NCBI GenBank assembly: GCA_902540785.1
Contig: CACBOA010000004.1
Coordinates: 3,082-67,081 of the forward strand
Direction of reading: 5' to 3'
Length of the DNA stretch: 64,000 nt
From: an uncultured Pelagibacteraceae bacterium
Lineage (GTDB): Bacteria; Pseudomonadota; Alphaproteobacteria; Pelagibacterales; Pelagibacteraceae
This document shows, piece by piece, positions 25,565 through 64,000 of this stretch; position 1 is the first letter of the stretch; every line of letters begins with the position of its first letter. Both the position numbers and the translations under genes were made by a program. The notes under the pieces were generated by a model. That model made no database searches and was not told the origin of the DNA. It saw nothing but the letters and a program-made list of their open reading frames with translations.

Positions 25565-25877
25565 TATTTTAATTGTTATATTTGTCACATCTCTAGCTAC
25601 ATACTTATCAAGATTTTTAGGAGTTGTTAGTTCAGAAAAAATTAAAGAAACCTCAAAAATGTTCAGATGGTTTAATTGTCTTGCTTATTCAACTCTTGCT
25701 GCATTAATTGCTCGAATAGTTATTTTTCCATTAGGATCTTTAGCAGAAGTAGATTTATCAGTCAGAATTTTTGTGGTTTCTTTATGTATAATTATTTTCT
25801 TTTTAACTAAAAAAAATTTAGTTTACCCTACAATTTTCTCTGCTATCATACTATCTCTTATTACAAGTTTTGTATGA
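25554..25877 (+). CDS. azlD: AzlD domain membrane protein
   Basis: TYLSRFLG motif, 4 TM; GGAG SD before ATG 25554. Confidence 0.78.
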   Translation: MASNILIVIFVTSLATYLSRFLGVVSSEKIKETSKMFRWFNCLAYSTLAALIARIVIFPLGSLAEVDLSVRIFVVSLCIIIFFLTKKNLVYPTIFSAIILSLITSFV

Positions 25878-26788
25878 GCGAAAAGATTGATGGATTTCAA
25901 ATAGAAAAACACGAACTGTCATCTAGAATTGTCAATATTGACATCAGCGATGAAGTTTTGAGTAAACTCATTTTTCCATTTAATAAGTTCGATATTACTG
26001 CTCTAGAATACAAACCTTTTACAAGATTCACTATTGCAAAAAGTTTAGACGACTTGAGTAATAACAAATTATCAAAATTTTTAAATGAAATTTTAAAAGA
26101 TCGAAATACAGGATGTTTTATTATTAAACCTCAAAATTTAAATTCAAAAATTGATGATAATTTTTTAGTTAAACTATCAACTGCCATCTCTCATTTAGTA
26201 GGTATACCTAATTACGATGCTATGGCTGGTAAATATTATGCAAGATTTCATGTAAAGCACGTCGATAAAAGCGACTCTTATTTAAGGAAAGCGTATACAA
26301 ACATGGATCTTCATACAGATGGCACTTACGTAAAAGAGAAAACTGATTGGTTATTAATGTCAAAATTAGAGGAAAGAAATGCAGAAGGTGGTGAAACTGC
26401 CATGTTGCATCTCGATGATTGGGAACATTGTGATGAATTGTTTAATGATCCAACAGGACAGGAAAACTTTCTTTGGGGATCACCAAAAAGTAAAAATATA
26501 GACTATAAAGTTGAACATCCTATATTTTCAACAGATCAAAACGGTAGAGCTCAAATTTCTTATATAGATCAGTTTCCAGAACCAAAAAATATGAAACAAG
26601 GTATTTTTTTACAAAAGTTATCTGACAACTTAGAAGAGAGTAAAAATAAGATAATCACAAAACTTCCAGTGGGATCTTCAATTGTAGCAAACAACTATTT
26701 TTGGCTTCATGGACGAAAACCTTTTAAAGAAAATAAAGATTTAAGTAGAGAATTATTAAGAATAAGGGGTTCTTTTTTTATTAATTAA
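25874..26788 (+). CDS. csiD: Glutarate 2-hydroxylase (carbon starvation protein CsiD/GlaH), Fe(II)/2OG dioxygenase
   Basis: GKYYARF.VK..D.SDSYLR, LHTDGTYV (HxD), LHLDDWEH, NN.FWLHGR..F, RELLR.RG. Confidence 0.9.
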   Translation: MSEKIDGFQIEKHELSSRIVNIDISDEVLSKLIFPFNKFDITALEYKPFTRFTIAKSLDDLSNNKLSKFLNEILKDRNTGCFIIKPQNLNSKIDDNFLVKLSTAISHLVGIPNYDAMAGKYYARFHVKHVDKSDSYLRKAYTNMDLHTDGTYVKEKTDWLLMSKLEERNAEGGETAMLHLDDWEHCDELFNDPTGQENFLWGSPKSKNIDYKVEHPIFSTDQNGRAQISYIDQFPEPKNMKQGIFLQKLSDNLEESKNKIITKLPVGSSIVANNYFWLHGRKPFKENKDLSRELLRIRGSFFIN

Positions 26789-31466: not shown

Positions 31467-31538
31467 ATGAAATATATCATTACAGGTGCTGCATTGGCTT
31501 GGGCTTTATATATGGCTGATAAATATTTATTTTTTTAA
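31467..31538 (+). CDS. Unannotated 23-aa hydrophobic microprotein MKYIITGAALAWALYMADKYLFF
   Basis: Translated by hand: ATG 4 nt after livM stop, TAA 31536-31538 just before the terminator; one hydrophobic helix. Confidence 0.55.
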   Translation: MKYIITGAALAWALYMADKYLFF

Positions 31539-56704: not shown

Positions 56705-57655
56705 ATGAAAAAAATATTAATCATCGGTGGTGGTGCAATGGGTTCTGCTTTTTCAATCCCATGTTTAGAAAATAATAATAAAGTTACAATAACAGAACCA
56801 TATAATAAAGTTTTCATTAAGAATTTATCCTCAAAAAAAAAATTTCATTCCTCTTTAAAAACTAATTTGCCAAAAAAGTTAAAATTTAAGAATTATTCAA
56901 AAGATATATTCAGAGAAAAGTTTGATTTGATTGTAATAGCATTGAGTCTTGCCGGAATTAATTTTATCGGAAAGGAATTGAAAGACTTAAAAATAAAAAC
57001 ACCATTATTAGTTCTTACTAAAGGACTAAAATATGATAAAAAAAGAAAAAAACTCTTAACTATTTCAGGGTTACTCAAAAATAATTATAATGTTGCAAAT
57101 GTGTCAGTTTTAAAAGGACCTTGTTTGGCTAAAGAATTAGCAAGAAAAAATAAGACAAGTGTAGTAATAGCAAATAAGAATATAAAAATAGCTAAATGGA
57201 TTGGAAAACAAATATCTACTAAATACTATCTAACTGAATTTTCTAAAGATGTTATTGGAGTAGAAATTTGCTCAGCAATTAAGAATATATATGCAATGGT
57301 TATAGGTTCAGGTCAAAATTTAAATGCTTCATCAGATTTATTTCAAAAAAGTGTAAATGAGATGAAATTTTTAATAAAACATTTCAAAGGAGATGAGACG
57401 ACGATACTTGGACTTGCTGGTATTGGTGACTTATATGTAAGTGCTGTGGGAGGACGAAACAGCAAAATGGGAGATTTTTTGGGCAAAGGTTTTACATTCA
57501 CAACAGCTAAAAAAAAGTTTATGCCAAAAGATACAGTGGAAGGTGAGCAATTAGCTAGAGAAATTGCTCCTTATATCTTAAAAAAAATTAATAAAAAAAA
57601 CATACCGCTGATGGCTCATTTGCTAAAGACGATACTATATAATAGAAAAATTTAG
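56705..57655 (+). CDS. gpsA: NAD(P)H-dependent glycerol-3-phosphate dehydrogenase-like protein
   Basis: IGGGAMG, TKGL, GP..A.E, D.IGVE..SA.KN, GLAGIGDL, RN, TVEG. Confidence 0.8.
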   Translation: MKKILIIGGGAMGSAFSIPCLENNNKVTITEPYNKVFIKNLSSKKKFHSSLKTNLPKKLKFKNYSKDIFREKFDLIVIALSLAGINFIGKELKDLKIKTPLLVLTKGLKYDKKRKKLLTISGLLKNNYNVANVSVLKGPCLAKELARKNKTSVVIANKNIKIAKWIGKQISTKYYLTEFSKDVIGVEICSAIKNIYAMVIGSGQNLNASSDLFQKSVNEMKFLIKHFKGDETTILGLAGIGDLYVSAVGGRNSKMGDFLGKGFTFTTAKKKFMPKDTVEGEQLAREIAPYILKKINKKNIPLMAHLLKTILYNRKI

Positions 57656-57735
57656 CCGATTAGAAAGTTATTTTCTACAAGCAGTCCGATGATAATTCCT
57701 ACTATCAACGCGAGAATTAATTTTTTTTTATCCAC
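57652..57735 (-). CDS. Unannotated 27-aa single-TM microprotein MDKKKLILALIVGIIIGLLVENNFLIG
   Basis: Translated by hand: GTG 3 nt after livM stop; KKK then 15 apolar residues with GxxxG; TAA overlaps the convergent gpsA stop. Confidence 0.6.
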   Translation of the reverse strand: MDKKKLILALIVGIIIGLLVENNFLIG

Positions 57736-57738
57736 TTC

Positions 57739-58803
57739 CTAAGTTTTTTTACCAAAAGACTTTAAATTTGTAGATGATGGGATTTTTGTCTTCCATTTCT
57801 GTTTTATATTTTCCCATAATTTTGCCATTCCTAAAGGTTCATAGATCATGAAAATAATCATCAATCCACCAAATATTACCTGTTCAATTGAGGATATAAT
57901 TGTAGCATCAATGGCACCATGAAAAACATTATTACCAATAGCATTAAGAAGAACTGGGAAAAGTAAAATAAATGCTGCTCCTATAAAAGCACCATTTATT
58001 GTACCAAGTCCACCCAAAATGCACATAAATAATATTTTAAAAGATAATTTAATATCAAATGCAACTGGTTCTAAAGATTTTAAATAACAAAATGCAAAGA
58101 GTGCACCTGCAACTCCACAATAAAATGCACTGATTGCAAAGGCTTGTACTTTTGTTCGTAATAATGACACTCCCATCGACTCCGCAGCGATATCCATGTC
58201 TCTAACTGCCATCCAATTCCTACCTGTACTACCTCTAGCCATATTCATCGCTAGTAAAGTTAAAACTGTTGTAACAGCCAGACATACAAAATACATTGCT
58301 AATGGTGTTGTAAATGGTTTTCCTAAGATAACTATGTCTTGTGCAGTTATAATTCCTGATGAGTCGTAGTTTTTAAACCAACCAAATTTATCTATCATCC
58401 ATATAATAAAGAACTGTGAGGCTAATGTAGCAACCATCAGATAAATTCCTCTTACTTTTAAACTTGGCAGACCAAACAAAATTCCAAAAGCTGCAGCAAT
58501 TAAACCTGACACTATTAGTGAGCCTACGAAACCTAAATCAGGCACTCTTAAAATAAGGTTAAACATTGCAAAAGCACCTGCCGCCATGAAGCCAGCAGCA
58601 CCTAAAGCTAATTGTCCTGTGTAACCCATAACAATTTGCTGTCCAATTGTAGCTAAAGCTAAGCAAAGCCAAGGTATCAATATAGAAGTGTACCAATATT
58701 CTGTTGTAATAAATGTAGGTATTACTAATACACTCAGAACCATACAAACAGCTAAGTTAATCAGGTCTTTTTTTGTATAAGTCATAAATACTGGTTTCAT
58801 CAT
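57739..58803 (-). CDS. livM: HAAT ABC permease LivM-type, system 3
   Basis: GYTGQLALG, GLPSLKVRGIYL..ATLA, GRNWMAVRDMDIAA, EPLGMA. Confidence 0.9.
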   Translation of the reverse strand: MMKPVFMTYTKKDLINLAVCMVLSVLVIPTFITTEYWYTSILIPWLCLALATIGQQIVMGYTGQLALGAAGFMAAGAFAMFNLILRVPDLGFVGSLIVSGLIAAAFGILFGLPSLKVRGIYLMVATLASQFFIIWMIDKFGWFKNYDSSGIITAQDIVILGKPFTTPLAMYFVCLAVTTVLTLLAMNMARGSTGRNWMAVRDMDIAAESMGVSLLRTKVQAFAISAFYCGVAGALFAFCYLKSLEPVAFDIKLSFKILFMCILGGLGTINGAFIGAAFILLFPVLLNAIGNNVFHGAIDATIISSIEQVIFGGLMIIFMIYEPLGMAKLWENIKQKWKTKIPSSTNLKSFGKKT

Positions 58804-58806
58804 AAA

Positions 58807-59715
58807 TTAAACTCTCCTAATAATTTTTTCTCCAAATAAACCTTCCGGTCTATATAATAAAAAGAATATTGCTAAGACGTAAGGAGCCCAACCTTCAATT
58901 GCGCCACCAAAAAACGGTCCAATGTATACTTCTAAAACTTTCTCTACTGCACCAATGATTAAGCCACCAATAATTGCGCCTGGAATAGATGAAAAGCCAC
59001 CTATAATTAAAACTGGCAAAGCTTTTAACGCTAAATCAACAAGAGCAAATTGAACACCAGCTCTTGCACCCCACATACATCCTGCAACTAATGCCACAAC
59101 TCCAGCAGCAGACCAAACTAGTAACATAATGTGTTTTAAAGGAATTCCTATTGAACTAGCGGCACCTGCATCATCTGCAACAGCTCTCAGACCCAGACCA
59201 ATTTTTGTATATTTAAATAGAAGGAATAAACCGATAATCATTATAGCTGCAACAAGTCCTGCAGTAATATCAAGAGCACTAATAAATAATTTTAAGTTAT
59301 CAGCAATCCACGGCACTGGAAAATCTCCTATACCTAAATCTAATCTTCTTACTTCTACTCCCCATGCTGCTTGAGCCAAGCCTTCTAAAACATATCCTAG
59401 ACCAATTGTGGCCATTAGCACCGTGTCCTCACTGGCATTCATGAGAGGTCTTAAAACAAATCTTTCGGTACACAAACCAACAACTACCATTAGAAGAGCA
59501 GCTAAAATAAAGGCAAGTACAAAAGGTATGTTAAAATCTTGCATGAAACCACAAAAAGCAAGCACTGAGAAAAAAACCATAGCTCCTTGTGAAAAGTTAA
59601 AGGTTGCTGAAGCTTTAAAAATTAGAACAAATCCTAAAGCTACCAATGAGTACATAGTTCCAGCAAGCAAACCGCCAACTAAAACTTCCATAAAAAATAA
59701 TAATTCTTCAACCAT
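58807..59715 (-). CDS. livH: HAAT ABC permease LivH-type, system 3
   Basis: ALGFVLIFKAS..FNFSQG, GLRAVADD, RPEGLFGE. Confidence 0.9.
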   Translation of the reverse strand: MVEELLFFMEVLVGGLLAGTMYSLVALGFVLIFKASATFNFSQGAMVFFSVLAFCGFMQDFNIPFVLAFILAALLMVVVGLCTERFVLRPLMNASEDTVLMATIGLGYVLEGLAQAAWGVEVRRLDLGIGDFPVPWIADNLKLFISALDITAGLVAAIMIIGLFLLFKYTKIGLGLRAVADDAGAASSIGIPLKHIMLLVWSAAGVVALVAGCMWGARAGVQFALVDLALKALPVLIIGGFSSIPGAIIGGLIIGAVEKVLEVYIGPFFGGAIEGWAPYVLAIFFLLYRPEGLFGEKIIRRV

Positions 59716-59724
59716 ATTTTTATC

Positions 59725-60519
59725 CTAGTGTTCTACTCCTAAATAAGCATCTATTACTTTTTGATTTGATCTTACTTCATCAGGCGTACCATCGCCAATA
59801 ACTTTACCATAATCAAGCACTACAACTCTGTCTGATATATCCATAACTACTCCCATATCATGCTCAATAAGAACCATAGTTGTGCCGAGTTCATCATTTA
59901 CTTTTAAAATGAACCTACACATGTCCCTTTTTTCTTCAACATTCATTCCAGCCATAGGCTCATCTAATAAAATTACAGATGAGTCTGTTGCAAGAGCACG
60001 ACCTAATTCCACTTTCTTTTGTAATCCATATGGAAGTTTTCCAACTGGTGTGTCTTTAATATCCTCAATTTCTAAAAAGCTAATTATTTCTTCAGATCTA
60101 TCTCTGTTTTCTTTCTCTTCTTTTTTTACCTTAGGTAGTTGAAATGCGACTTCAAGAAAATTTGTTTTTGTGTGAAGCTTTCGGCCTACTAAAATATTAT
60201 CTAGGACTGACATTCTTTTAAATAGAGCTAAGTTTTGAAAAGTTCTAGATAAACCCATTTGAGCCATGATATTTGGTGTTATATTTGTTATTTGTTGTCC
60301 CTTAAACGAGACAGTTCCTTGTTGAGGCTTATAAATCCCGTTTATACAATTCAGCATTGAGCTTTTACCTGCTCCATTAGGTCCGATTATAGCTCTAACT
60401 TCATGCTCAAGAACATCAAACGAGGTGTCAGTTATTGCTTTAACACCACCAAAAGAAAGAGAAATATTTTTTACTTCTAATATTGGTTTACCTATTTTAA
60501 ATTTTCTTTCTTGTGCCAT
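59725..60519 (-). CDS. livG: HAAT ABC ATP-binding LivG-type, system 3
   Basis: GPNGAGKSS, RTFQN, LPYGLQK, LDEPMAG, IEHDM. Confidence 0.92.
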   Translation of the reverse strand: MAQERKFKIGKPILEVKNISLSFGGVKAITDTSFDVLEHEVRAIIGPNGAGKSSMLNCINGIYKPQQGTVSFKGQQITNITPNIMAQMGLSRTFQNLALFKRMSVLDNILVGRKLHTKTNFLEVAFQLPKVKKEEKENRDRSEEIISFLEIEDIKDTPVGKLPYGLQKKVELGRALATDSSVILLDEPMAGMNVEEKRDMCRFILKVNDELGTTMVLIEHDMGVVMDISDRVVVLDYGKVIGDGTPDEVRSNQKVIDAYLGVEH

Positions 60520-60521
60520 CT

Positions 60522-61337
60522 TTAGTTAATTTTTTTCTTTGTTAAACTTTCTTCCTTAAGTACGTCTCTGAAATTTTTTCTGCCTTTCTTTGAAATACCT
60601 AAATATAATTCTTTTACTTGGTCATTACTCAATAAACTCTTAGCTGTCCCATCTAACATCACTCTTCCTGTTTCAATAATATAACCATAATCGGAATTTT
60701 TTAGTGCAACGTTAGTATTCTGTTCAGCAAGTAAAATACTAACTCCTTCTTTGGTATTTAATTCTTTCACAATATTAAAAATCTCAGCAACTAATTGAGG
60801 TGCAAGGCCCATTGTTGGCTCATCCAATAATAGCATTTTAGGTTTAGCCATCATCGCTCTTGCGACCGCTATCATTTGTTGCTCTCCACCTGATGTAAAT
60901 GCAGCTTGGCTTTTTCTTCTTTCCTTTAATCTTATGAAATAAGTATATATTTTTTCTAATTCTTGATTGATATCACCTTTTGATAATTTTCTTGAGTATG
61001 CCCCAGCAATAATATTTTCTTCAACAGTGAGGTGGCCAAAACATCTTCTGCCCTCTAATACTTGAACCATGCCAAGCCCAACCATTTGTGAGGGATTTTG
61101 TTTTTCAATTAAGGTACCATCATATTCTATAGTGCCTTTTGTTACTTTACCTCTTTCTGAGGCTAGCATAGTTGAAACCGCTTTTAATGTTGTACTCTTA
61201 CCCGCTCCATTTGCTCCAAGTAGTGCTACTACTTTTCCCTTTGGCACTTTTAATGAAACATCATGTAGAGCTAAAATAACATTATCATATGTTACTTCGA
61301 TATTTTTAATATCAAGTATGTTGGTTGAAGTGCTCAT
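60522..61337 (-). CDS. livF: HAAT ABC ATP-binding LivF-type, system 3
   Basis: GANGAGKST, SGGEQQM, LDEPTMGLAP, AEQN. Confidence 0.92.
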   Translation of the reverse strand: MSTSTNILDIKNIEVTYDNVILALHDVSLKVPKGKVVALLGANGAGKSTTLKAVSTMLASERGKVTKGTIEYDGTLIEKQNPSQMVGLGMVQVLEGRRCFGHLTVEENIIAGAYSRKLSKGDINQELEKIYTYFIRLKERRKSQAAFTSGGEQQMIAVARAMMAKPKMLLLDEPTMGLAPQLVAEIFNIVKELNTKEGVSILLAEQNTNVALKNSDYGYIIETGRVMLDGTAKSLLSNDQVKELYLGISKKGRKNFRDVLKEESLTKKKIN

Positions 61338-61373
61338 TAATTTTTTTCAATTATATTTATATTAAATTTTATT

Positions 61374-61417
61374 TAAAGGGGAGTTAGAATAACTTGATTA
61401 TCTAAACTCCCCCTTTA
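61374..61417 (-). terminator. Long imperfect stem-loop between SBP and ATPase genes (stabiliser or weak terminator)
   Basis: TAAAGGGGAGTT... / ...AACTCCCCCTTTA inverted repeat; no clear U-tract. Confidence 0.6.
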
Positions 61418-61444
61418 GTAGATATTAATTTATTTCTAAATTAA

Positions 61445-62785
61445 TTATCCACATTTTTTCGGTGTAATGTTGTTTTCTTTAGCAAATTTCGCTGCAGATG
61501 CCTCTACAAGACCTCTAATAAATGCAGGATCACCTGGAGCTTCCCAACCAGTTACCTGATTGAATTTAGTTCCATCCCACTGCATTACAGCAAATTTACC
61601 GGCACCTTCATGGTTTGCGCATGAAATAGCAAATGGAGCTAACATTCCTCCAACTCCAAGTTCAGTAAGTCTAGCTTCAGTCATGTTTAAATTTTCATAA
61701 CCATCTCTAAACTCAGCACCAGTTACTGCTTTACCAACTTTGTTATGCATTTTTTGAGCAATTCTTAACGCCTCAATCCACATAACGGCAGCACCTAGTC
61801 CTCTATTCCAGTAAACGGAACCAATCCTATTTGGATCAGCTAAGTTACCTTTTCCGGCACCATATACTTTATCTTTAATGTCTTTAACTAATGGATATTC
61901 ACCTGGTAAAGCATTTGCAACAGCATAAGTTCCCTTAGCTGCATCACCTGCTGGATACATATCCTCTTCGGCAGCACCGAATGTTACATACATCATTCTA
62001 TCTCTTGGGAAATTAATTCTAGCAGCGTTAGTCATTGCTGTTGAATTCATTCCAGAACCTGCTCCCCAGAAAGTAACCCAATCAGGTTTTTCTTTTCTGA
62101 TTTGCAGCCATTGAGATTGTTGCTCTAATCCTGGAGGTGGAATTGAGATTTCAATTAATTTCATTCCCCAATCAGAAGTTATTTTTCTCATTGCTGGAAG
62201 TGGTTCTCTTCCGTAAGCAGAGTCGATGTGTAAGTGAACGATTTTTTTACCTTTCATTTTATCTATACCGCCCTCTACTTGAGCCATAAACTTCAGTTTA
62301 ACCGCTATTTGTGACCAGTAGTGACTTGCAGCATTAAATACCCAAGGCCATACTCTTCCATCAGCACCGTCAGTTCTTCCATAACCATATTGAGCTAAAA
62401 CAACATTATCTTTAGCCATACGGTTAATCACAGCGTATGCTCCTGGTGTTCCTAAAGTATCAAACACTACTATTCTTTGACCATCTTTTTCTAAAAGTCT
62501 TTGGTAACATTCTACCGTTTTAACAGCGTTATATTCCGTCTCACACTCTTGCCATGTAAGCATTACTCCGTTTACTCCACCCGTCATGTTTACATAGTTC
62601 ATGTAATCAATTTGAGCCCCGTAGTAACCAGTACCCATTGCTGAGTAAGGTCCAACACGACTACTTGCTACTGGAAAATATTGTGTCTCAGCAGCAGATA
62701 CACTTTGAGGTAAAGTAAGTGAAGAAAATAAAGCGATAACTACTGTTAGAGTAGAAGTTAGCCTTTTAATTATTTTTGCTAACAT
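61445..62785 (-). CDS. HAAT ABC substrate-binding protein, system 3
   Basis: Signal peptide; R.GPY, GGVNGV, ECETEY, GYGR, DS.YGRE, QW.QIR; start placed at ATG 62785 after a GGAGG SD. Confidence 0.9.
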   Translation of the reverse strand: MLAKIIKRLTSTLTVVIALFSSLTLPQSVSAAETQYFPVASSRVGPYSAMGTGYYGAQIDYMNYVNMTGGVNGVMLTWQECETEYNAVKTVECYQRLLEKDGQRIVVFDTLGTPGAYAVINRMAKDNVVLAQYGYGRTDGADGRVWPWVFNAASHYWSQIAVKLKFMAQVEGGIDKMKGKKIVHLHIDSAYGREPLPAMRKITSDWGMKLIEISIPPPGLEQQSQWLQIRKEKPDWVTFWGAGSGMNSTAMTNAARINFPRDRMMYVTFGAAEEDMYPAGDAAKGTYAVANALPGEYPLVKDIKDKVYGAGKGNLADPNRIGSVYWNRGLGAAVMWIEALRIAQKMHNKVGKAVTGAEFRDGYENLNMTEARLTELGVGGMLAPFAISCANHEGAGKFAVMQWDGTKFNQVTGWEAPGDPAFIRGLVEASAAKFAKENNITPKKCG

Positions 62786-63012
62786 TATTCCTCCCTTATG
62801 TTTAGTTATGTTAAACATTCTAATAAGCTATAATCTAACCACATAGCTAGGGTTTCTGCAATTGATAATCATTATAAATTTAAAAAATATAATTCTTCTA
62901 GTAATGCAAAATTATACAACTTTTGATTGAAGAAAATTTTTCGTCTTAACTTTGATGATTATGATTGCATATCAACTAATTATAAAGTTTGAAGATAAGC
63001 TAGATTACGATT

Positions 63013-63795
63013 ATGAAAAAAATTTTGATAGTTGAGGGAAATTTAGAGGAAGAAAATAATACTTTTACTAAGGCTGGAATCCAAACTCACACCCAAAGTT
63101 TAAAAGAAAGTTTAGATTATTTATCGAAAGAGATAATGCTAGATATAGTTAATCCATCGTCAGATAAAAATGTTGATAGTTTCAACGATAAGTTGCACAT
63201 TTACGATGGTTTAATCTGGGGAGGAAGCAGTTTGAATATTTATAACGATACTCCAGAAATAAAAAGACAAATTGAATTTATGAAAAATTGTCAAAAAAAG
63301 GTTAAAAATATTCTAGGGATTTGCTGGGGCATGCAAGTAGCTGTGACTGCTGCTGGTGGCCAAGTTAAAAAAGCAAATGTATCTCATGTTGGGATCGCAA
63401 AAGAAATTGAGTTAAATGAAGAGGGCCTAAAGCATCCACTTTACAAAGATAAAGAAAAAAAATTTAATTCTGCAGCTTTTAATTATGATGAAGTAGTAAA
63501 AATTCCTGAAAACGGTATTTGTCTAGCGTCTAATAAAGTTAATAAAGTCCAAGGTTTATATTTTGAGGTAAATAAAACTAGAGTATGGGGTCTGCAATAC
63601 CATCCTGAAATAACTTATGAAAAAATGATAAGTCTAATTAATTTTAGAAGAAAAAGATTAATCGAAGATAGAAAAGTATTCGAAAATGAGAATGATCTCG
63701 AAAAGCATATCTCTTTTATCGAGAAAGAAATTCAGGTTACTGTTAAAGAAAAAAAAATGTTAGAGCTTAAAAATTGGCTTAAAGAGTTAAATTAA
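63013..63795 (+). CDS. Class I glutamine amidotransferase-like protein
   Basis: GICWGMQ nucleophile elbow and QYHPE His-Glu pair; stand-alone. Confidence 0.88.
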
Positions 63796-64000
63796 AATAA
63801 TCCCTCAATTTGGCCTTTTTGATTTAACTTTATATTATCAGCTGCTGGCACTCTTGGTAATCCTGGCATTGTCATTATGGAACCACAAACAACCACCACA
63901 AATTCTGCTCCTGATGATAATCTCACTTCTCTTATTGGTATTTCGTGATTTGATGGAGCACCCTTAAGTTTTGGATCTGTTGAAAAACTAAACTGAGTTT
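63792..64000 (-). CDS. fhs: Formate-tetrahydrofolate ligase, C-terminal part (not in ORF track; start outside window)
   Basis: Manual translation [15 protein letters not shown]...[24 protein letters not shown]...IEGLF* matches the FTHFS C-terminus. Confidence 0.93.

What the first reader, a model, noticed from the sequence alone, without database searches (positions are those of the whole stretch)
57652..57735. Hidden microprotein 2 after livM of HAAT system 3: a recurring livM-microprotein architecture
Seen: GTG 3 nt after the livM stop encodes MDKKKLILALIVGIIIGLLVENNFLIG, with a basic N-terminus, 15 apolar residues including GxxxG, and a stop overlapping the convergent gpsA stop as other convergent pairs do here (63792-63795). 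It fills the gap exactly. With the ORF at 31467-31538, both operons that end in livM are followed by one short helix with Lys near the N-terminus and an acidic residue plus hydrophobic tail (ADKYLFF, VENNFLIG). Inference: a possibly undescribed class of small accessory subunits or regulators of HAAT importers. This is my best candidate for a new system in the window.
Basis: partly seen in the sequence, partly recalled or inferred. Interest (0 to 1): 0.8.

Follow-up and report, generated by a model that had tools for sequence, protein, structure and literature searches.

The report
SAR11 importer's hidden membrane microprotein
A conserved 27-codon reading frame closes an ABC-importer operon in one genus of the abundant ocean bacterium SAR11; it is predicted to make a single membrane helix that likely binds and tunes that importer, but the broader "livM plus microprotein" class proposed for it does not hold.

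Summary
The ORF at 57652-57735 (-) is real. It follows this livM in 52 of 52 same-genus genomes carrying the operon; among 349 without it there was one contig-end fragment and two noise hits. It is under purifying selection (pN/pS 0.14), keeps its start across shifting overlaps with the livM stop, stays while neighbours change, and conserves one helix face (A9, L10, G13, G17). No Pfam or NCBIfam family matches. The proposed recurring architecture fails. The second ORF (31467-31538) is also real but is a family-wide microprotein found beside guaA, NlpC/P60, MazG-like and other genes, including in genera where that livM was not found. The two ORFs show no homology. Close orthologues of this livM in other genera and 29 alphaproteobacterial loci lack the peptide. 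This genome has 14 conserved hydrophobic small ORFs. Best reading (0.5): a genus-specific, non-essential KdpF-like partner of the LivHM permease; translation and binding are untested. Side finding: the cassette lies next to formate genes in 83 of 87 loci.

The parts
57652..57735 (-). ORF-A: 27-aa predicted single-pass membrane microprotein (basic N-terminus, helix L6-V20 with conserved A9/L10/G13/G17 face, conserved N-N-F tail); last gene of the operon
57739..58803 (-). livM-type permease of HAAT system 3 (PF02653)
58807..59715 (-). livH-type permease (PF02653)
59725..60519 (-). livG-type ATPase (PF00005 + PF12399)
60522..61337 (-). livF-type ATPase (PF00005)
61445..62818 (-). Substrate-binding protein (PF13458); closest solved structure 4RU0 (E 5e-101), ligand not given
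56705..57655 (+). Convergent gpsA-like gene; a variable neighbour (38 of 80 loci), not part of the cassette
63013..63795 (+). Divergent class I glutamine amidotransferase-like gene; formate-tetrahydrofolate ligase follows it at the window edge (G000 C4:66876-68558)
31467..31538 (+). ORF-B: 23-aa selected hydrophobic microprotein of a separate, family-wide SAR11 family; next to livM2 only in this genus

Best explanation
ORF-A is a conserved, purifying-selected 27-28-codon frame at the end of the five-gene HAAT cassette in genus g1 (Pelagibacter-like SAR11), predicted to encode one inner-membrane helix that likely packs against the LivH/LivM permease as a non-essential, genus-specific stabiliser or tuner, in the manner of KdpF. 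Shown: conservation, codon-level selection, fixed position, co-occurrence with the cassette, one conserved helix face. Inferred: co-transcription; translation by coupling to livM termination (start at -8 to +5 in nearly all loci, GTG in 151 of 176); N-in topology from the Lys/Arg cluster, which would put the N-N-F tail at the periplasmic surface; helix packing through the A9-G13-G17 face; the permease as partner. It cannot be an obligatory HAAT subunit, because 82-85% identical orthologous transporters lack it.
For: Present after livM3 in 52 of 52 genus genomes, 80 of 80 GTDB loci (76 by pattern, 4 by eye; these overlap the 52), and 39 of 39 informative metagenome loci (44 found, 5 with no upstream DNA). 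Of 349 genus genomes without livM3, 346 have no match, one (G270) has a fragment at a contig end and two are noise. The downstream neighbour changes: gpsA 38, HPP 33, SufU-like 8, none 1 of 80. The HPP gene sits upstream of the cassette in some loci while ORF-A stays. pN/pS 0.137. Variability along the helix is periodic at about 100 degrees, shuffle p 0.001, with A9, L10, G13 and G17 invariant in 52 variants. No RNA-structure signal (z -1.4 to +1.8). Precedent: KdpF and AcrZ modulate transporters (PMC7267776, passages).
Against: No translation, binding or transport data. Close orthologues lack it: in g15/g17 a MORN-like secreted gene follows livM, in most g14 a 103-aa anchored protein, and in G669 a sigma-54 regulator. 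ORF-B shows that a SAR11 microprotein can sit behind a livM across a genus with no apparent dependence on it. The genome holds 14 conserved hydrophobic small ORFs, 9 of them tight behind some gene. The genomes are kin and the cassette may be inherited as one block, so 52/52 may reflect one gain; a single clade is neither shown nor rejected (p-AU 0.40). No co-evolved site on LivH or LivM survived the control. Most genomes are incomplete (9 of 73 near-complete ones carry the operon).
Confidence: 0.5

Rival explanations
1. ORF-A is a real membrane microprotein but a passenger. It entered the 3' slot of the cassette once, is expressed from it, and acts on itself (GxxxG oligomer) or on an unrelated membrane target.
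For: The same slot holds unrelated membrane-targeted genes in other genera. ORF-B behaves this way at livM2. Two similar 38-39 aa microproteins have different neighbours in G000 and G073. GxxxG is also a self-association motif (established knowledge).
Against: It was never seen without the cassette, or lost from it, in genus g1, while HPP, FDH, Fhs, GATase and gpsA come and go. ORF-B does persist where livM2 was not found.
Confidence: 0.3
2. ORF-A serves the formate/C1 module around the cassette, for example as a partner of the HPP membrane protein or a membrane tether for formate dehydrogenase, rather than the permease.
For: A formate gene lies within 1.5 kb of the cassette in 83 of 87 informative loci.
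Against: The formate gene differs between loci (NAD-FDH, Mo-FDH alpha, Fhs) and HPP is absent from the 37 Fhs-type g1 loci, while ORF-A is constant. g14/g15/g17 have the formate genes without ORF-A.
Confidence: 0.1
3. The function is in cis: translating the short frame protects the operon's 3' end or insulates it from the convergent gene, and the product matters little.
For: No terminator-like site at the junction; the convergent neighbour abuts the stop in nearly all loci.
Against: Amino-acid-level selection with an invariant helix face and N-N-F motif is not expected of a mere spacer.
Confidence: 0.06
4. ORF-A is an extra C-terminal helix of LivM made by stop read-through or frameshift, or it is not a gene at all.
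For: In this window it is in frame with livM, one codon after a TAG.
Against: Offsets across genomes are -8, -4, 0, +2, +3 and +26, covering all three frames, with a start codon kept in each; selection as above.
Confidence: 0.04

Closest known systems
KdpF of KdpFABC (E. coli)
   Same: [quoted passage not shown] That it is about 29 aa and encoded in the kdp operon is recalled, not from a call.
   Different: No sequence match (no Pfam or NCBIfam hit); different transporter class; ORF-A is the last gene, genus-restricted, and binding is untested.
AcrZ (AcrB) and MgtS
   Same: Small transmembrane proteins that modulate a larger transporter (PMC7267776 passages; MgtS seen only as a reference title there).
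   Different: Encoded apart from their targets and stress-regulated (recalled); no sequence match; their targets are not ABC importers.
MntS (E. coli)
   Same: A small protein that binds a transporter and arose from a substrate-binding-protein signal peptide (bioRxiv 10.1101/2023.06.02.543501, abstract). ORF-A looks signal-peptide-like and sits where the binding-protein gene lies in most alphaproteobacterial loci.
   Different: ORF-A's profile scores the candidate donor N-termini no better than background (best rank 30 of 1400 scored, 3.5 bits; own binding protein rank 578).
HAAT (LivKHMGF-type) ABC importers, including SAR11_1346, SAR11_1361 and SAR11_0655
   Same: Five-gene composition with two PF02653 permeases, two ATPases and a PF13458 binding protein.
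   Different: Extra terminal microprotein; binding protein closest to 4RU0; formate-gene neighbourhood. No solved LivH/LivM relative was found in the PDB, so structures cannot say whether such subunits exist.

Membership tests
Small membrane protein modulators of transporters (KdpF/AcrZ kind) | Protein-coding ORF of at most 50 aa under selection | tested here: met
   26-28 aa in 176 locus copies; pN/pS 0.137
Small membrane protein modulators of transporters (KdpF/AcrZ kind) | One transmembrane helix | tested here: met
   Hydropathy only: 15 apolar residues, KD 3.39; helical conservation period
Small membrane protein modulators of transporters (KdpF/AcrZ kind) | Genetic linkage to the transporter | tested here: met
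   52 of 52 with, 0 clear of 349 without; within one genus only
Small membrane protein modulators of transporters (KdpF/AcrZ kind) | Translated in vivo | not testable with these tools
   Only unstranded RNA contigs available
Small membrane protein modulators of transporters (KdpF/AcrZ kind) | Binds the transporter and changes its activity or stability | not testable with these tools
   Peptide is shorter than the folding tools' 30-residue size; no experiment
Named small-protein families (Pfam, NCBIfam, PHROGs) | Profile match | tested here: not met
   0 families in Pfam and NCBIfam at E 0.01; PHROGs only E 0.02-0.06 to unknown families
Proposed livM-microprotein class | The two peptides are homologous | tested here: not met
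   hhalign probability 19.9%, 11 columns
Proposed livM-microprotein class | ORF-B is tied to livM | tested here: not met
Proposed livM-microprotein class | Recurs after livM in other lineages | tested here: not met
   0 of 26 other-genus livM2 loci; 0 of 23 other-genus livM3 loci (one at a contig end, some duplicated); 0 of 29 class-level loci; in 72 PF02653 loci from 15 genomes the only clear short hydrophobic ORF after a livM was ORF-B in g1
Signal-peptide-derived small proteins (MntS kind) | Homology to the signal peptide of a linked secreted protein | tested here: not met
   a 27-residue profile has little power for old events
LivM read-through extension | Constant frame with livM | tested here: not met
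   Offsets in all three frames

The most novel reading that the evidence does not exclude
ORF-A is a dedicated sixth subunit of a HAAT ABC importer, a transmembrane microprotein partner of a kind my searches found no record of for ABC importers, and the importer is an undescribed SAR11 uptake system for formate or a formate-releasing C1 compound whose activity the peptide tunes.
Probability: 0.25. Interest if true: 0.72.

Novelty: new member of a known kind. Interest (0 to 1): 0.42.

Why it matters
SAR11 genomes are streamlined, so a 27-codon gene kept in every g1 copy of this cassette is doing something. If it binds LivHM it extends small-protein control of transport to ABC importers and would be needed for faithful reconstitution of this system. 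The work also shows a largely unnamed layer of about 14 conserved hydrophobic microproteins per SAR11 genome (one of the 12 others scanned has a confident Pfam family), including the family-wide ORF-B. It points to a likely formate or C1 importer worth ligand screening. It does not support a general new class of HAAT accessory subunits.

Tried and rejected
Read-through or frameshift into LivM: rejected (offsets in all frames). Structured RNA: no signal. Promoter and terminator scan: nothing above shuffles. Phage origin: 0 of 134 pattern matches in viral contigs confirmed; no match in phage records. Signal-peptide origin from the downstream or binding-protein genes: no support. Co-evolved binding site: five LivH positions at residues 42-72 looked specific to ORF-A carriers, but the carrier L372 has the ancestral loop and similar signatures occur in all five proteins, so this is shared ancestry. 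Transcription: metatranscriptome contigs cover ORF-A in three runs of two studies, but no listed piece bridges livM and ORF-A with 31 letters on both sides, contigs give no strand, and no silent stretch was laid; inconclusive. Complex and structure prediction were not run because every natural ORF-A is 26-28 aa. ESM Atlas for a natural 32-aa ORF-B homologue: best score 0.78, unnamed clusters, lead only. The 55 hits among 1.84 billion representatives were ORF-B-like, many with unrelated extensions that look like assembly artefacts. Exact look-up: 3 of 10 peptides are on record, JGI/IMG only, unnamed. Literature searches listed nothing on these peptides; the library lacks most subscription journals. 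Earlier scan findings: none relevant.

Full report
Observation. The window comes from a Pelagibacteraceae (SAR11) genome of 29.7% GC (named relatives). A minus-strand operon runs binding protein (61445-62818), livF, livG, livH, livM (57739-58803). Three bases after the livM TAG a GTG opens a 27-codon frame, ORF-A (57652-57735), whose stop overlaps the convergent gpsA stop by 4 nt. It has a Lys cluster, 15 apolar residues with GxxxG and a short N-N-F tail.

It is a gene. livM3 was found in 52 of 401 genomes of the genus and all 52 have the frame behind it, at offsets -8, -4, 0, +2, +3 or +26 from the livM stop, starting with GTG or ATG. Over 20 disjoint pairs there are 73.5 synonymous and 34.5 non-synonymous changes, pN/pS 0.137; third codon positions vary most. 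Across 176 locus copies (redundant; 52 distinct proteins) the length is 26-28 aa, and A9, L10, G13, G17, N23 and F24 are invariant. Variability along the helix has a 98-degree period (shuffle p 0.001; the sequences are kin, so this overstates), leaving one small-residue face conserved. The RNA folds no better than shuffles. No Pfam or NCBIfam family matches; a 28-aa variant is on record only as an unnamed JGI/IMG call.

It belongs to the cassette within this genus. A profile search of the same 401 genomes gave 55 matches: the 52, one fragment at a contig end (G270) and two noise hits. In the 80 best GTDB loci (of 431 that encode a relative) it is present in all 80, while the next gene is gpsA (38), HPP (33), SufU-like (8) or off-contig (1). 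Of 44 metagenome matches, 39 have upstream DNA and all 39 show livM3 (37 by tblastn, 2 by the translated tail). None was confirmed in viral contigs or phage records.

It is not a general HAAT part. In 150 family genomes the profile found only the one other g1 carrier; the remaining hits were weak and inside long frames. After livM3, g15/g17 have a signal-peptide protein with MORN-like repeats (named by eye), most g14 have a 103-aa anchored protein overlapping livM, and a few have other genes. The 82% identical livM of G669 is followed by a sigma-54 regulator. Among 29 class-level loci, livM is mostly followed by the binding-protein gene and never by a coupled hydrophobic micro-ORF. Trees neither show nor reject a single origin of ORF-A carriers. 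One g14 locus used in these comparisons (L019, G068) is unpublished; no claim depends on it.

The second peptide breaks the proposed pattern. ORF-B (31467-31538) is under selection too (pN/pS 0.077) and follows livM2 in 20 of 21 g1 loci. It follows livM2 in none of 26 informative loci from other genera (one contig-end locus dropped). Matches occur in 81 of 151 genomes and 7 of 19 genera (a few at E near 0.01 are weak). I read 19 contexts: after guaA in G146, after NlpC/P60 in g2, after a MazG-like gene in g5, before a membrane transport gene in g17, and varied in g14 (families). g14 and g17 have it although livM2 was not found there with this query; g4 and g9 have livM2 with no ORF-B match. 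It was not found in the 60 genomes of the order's other family. ORF-A and ORF-B profiles align only over GxxxG (probability 19.9%).

Background. Comparing G000 with the whole of G073, 70 of 223 intergenic 18-59 aa frames are intact in both; 14 are hydrophobic with at least five synonymous changes, and 9 of those sit tight behind a same-strand gene. Excluding A and B that is 7 per 139 genes with room behind them, about 5%. Two of two terminal livMs is therefore unlikely a priori (0.25%), but the pair was picked after the fact and ORF-B's distribution shows the adjacency is incidental. Gene calls here were simple longest-ORF calls, so these counts are approximate.

Mechanism. I commit to a KdpF-like reading at 0.5. 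The peptide is likely made by coupling to livM termination, would insert N-in, and would pack its A9-G13-G17 face on LivH or LivM to stabilise or tune the importer in this genus only. Conservation, linkage and the helix face are shown; translation, topology, partner and effect are inferred. The main rival (0.3) is a passenger microprotein with another target. A candidate co-evolved LivH loop failed its control. RNA contigs were inconclusive. No solved LivH/LivM relative was found, and the peptide is too short for the folding tools.

What the importer carries. A formate gene (NAD-dependent FDH, Mo-FDH alpha or formate-THF ligase) lies within 1.5 kb of the cassette in 83 of 87 informative loci out of 100 examined, across four genera. 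Non-homologous formate enzymes recurring beside it suggest formate or a formate-releasing substrate; this is inference. Window systems 1 and 2 resemble the SAR11_1346 and SAR11_1361 region by gene order (PMC11485210, passages; no sequence comparison, and the csiD-like label for 25874-26788 is recalled), so system 2 is probably the dicarboxylate importer. Supplement passages of that paper were searched; file 1 could not be read.

Known comparisons. KdpF and AcrZ (PMC7267776, passages) and MntS (bioRxiv 10.1101/2023.06.02.543501, abstract) are functional analogues at most; membership in any named family was not met. Nine literature searches (listings only) showed nothing on these peptides.

Verdict. 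Observation confirmed; interpretation partly supported. A new, genus-restricted member of the small membrane protein kind, tightly linked to one HAAT importer, function untested. The recurring architecture is refuted. Interest 0.42.

Noticed in passing
window 57739-64000 and L251-L330, L453-L472: The system-3 HAAT cassette lies within 1.5 kb of a formate gene (NAD-FDH, Mo-FDH alpha or Fhs), often with an HPP gene, in 83 of 87 informative loci across four genera: a candidate formate or C1 importer.
   Followed up: partly
window 31467-31538: ORF-B is a family-wide 22-32 aa SAR11 microprotein with invariant G, Y and D-K-Y-x-F, unnamed, in changing neighbourhoods; two copies 1 kb apart in G116.
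   Followed up: yes
G000 C1:72243, C3:51343, C7:7643, C7:25030, C7:27050, C5:4412, C36:2410, C2:14262, C2:14363, C47:482, C6:27336, C7:18968: Twelve further conserved hydrophobic 25-59 aa ORFs with synonymous changes against G073; only DUF5989 matches Pfam over its cut-off. C7:27050 and C36:2410 resemble each other and have different neighbours in the two genomes.
   Followed up: partly
L006:2487-2798: In most g14 genomes a conserved 103-aa N-terminally anchored protein with two Cys overlaps the last 43 nt of livM3; no PHROGs match.
   Followed up: partly
L005:2553-2960: In g15/g17 a signal-peptide protein with MORN-like repeats (named by eye) follows livM3, with SCO-like and copper-chaperone-like genes convergent in L005 (named by eye).
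   Followed up: no
L464, L476 (G669, G892): Two high-GC genomes of another family carry an 82-84% identical copy of this transporter, in 2 of 26 family genomes, near an insertion-sequence-like gene in G669 (named by eye): possible horizontal transfer.
   Followed up: partly
L390, L386 (G114, G080): A 60-aa ORF sits between livH and livM of system 1 in two g1 genomes.
   Followed up: no
L407, L413 (G027); L417, L420 (G001); L105 (G378): Open frames of 630-724 aa span two permease matches, suggesting livH-livM fusions or lost stops.
   Followed up: no
window 57739-57800: The LivM3 C-terminal tail is longer and more variable in most ORF-A carriers (26-31 residues after the last conserved Trp motif) than in non-carriers (14-16), but the 28-aa type has short tails.
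   Followed up: partly
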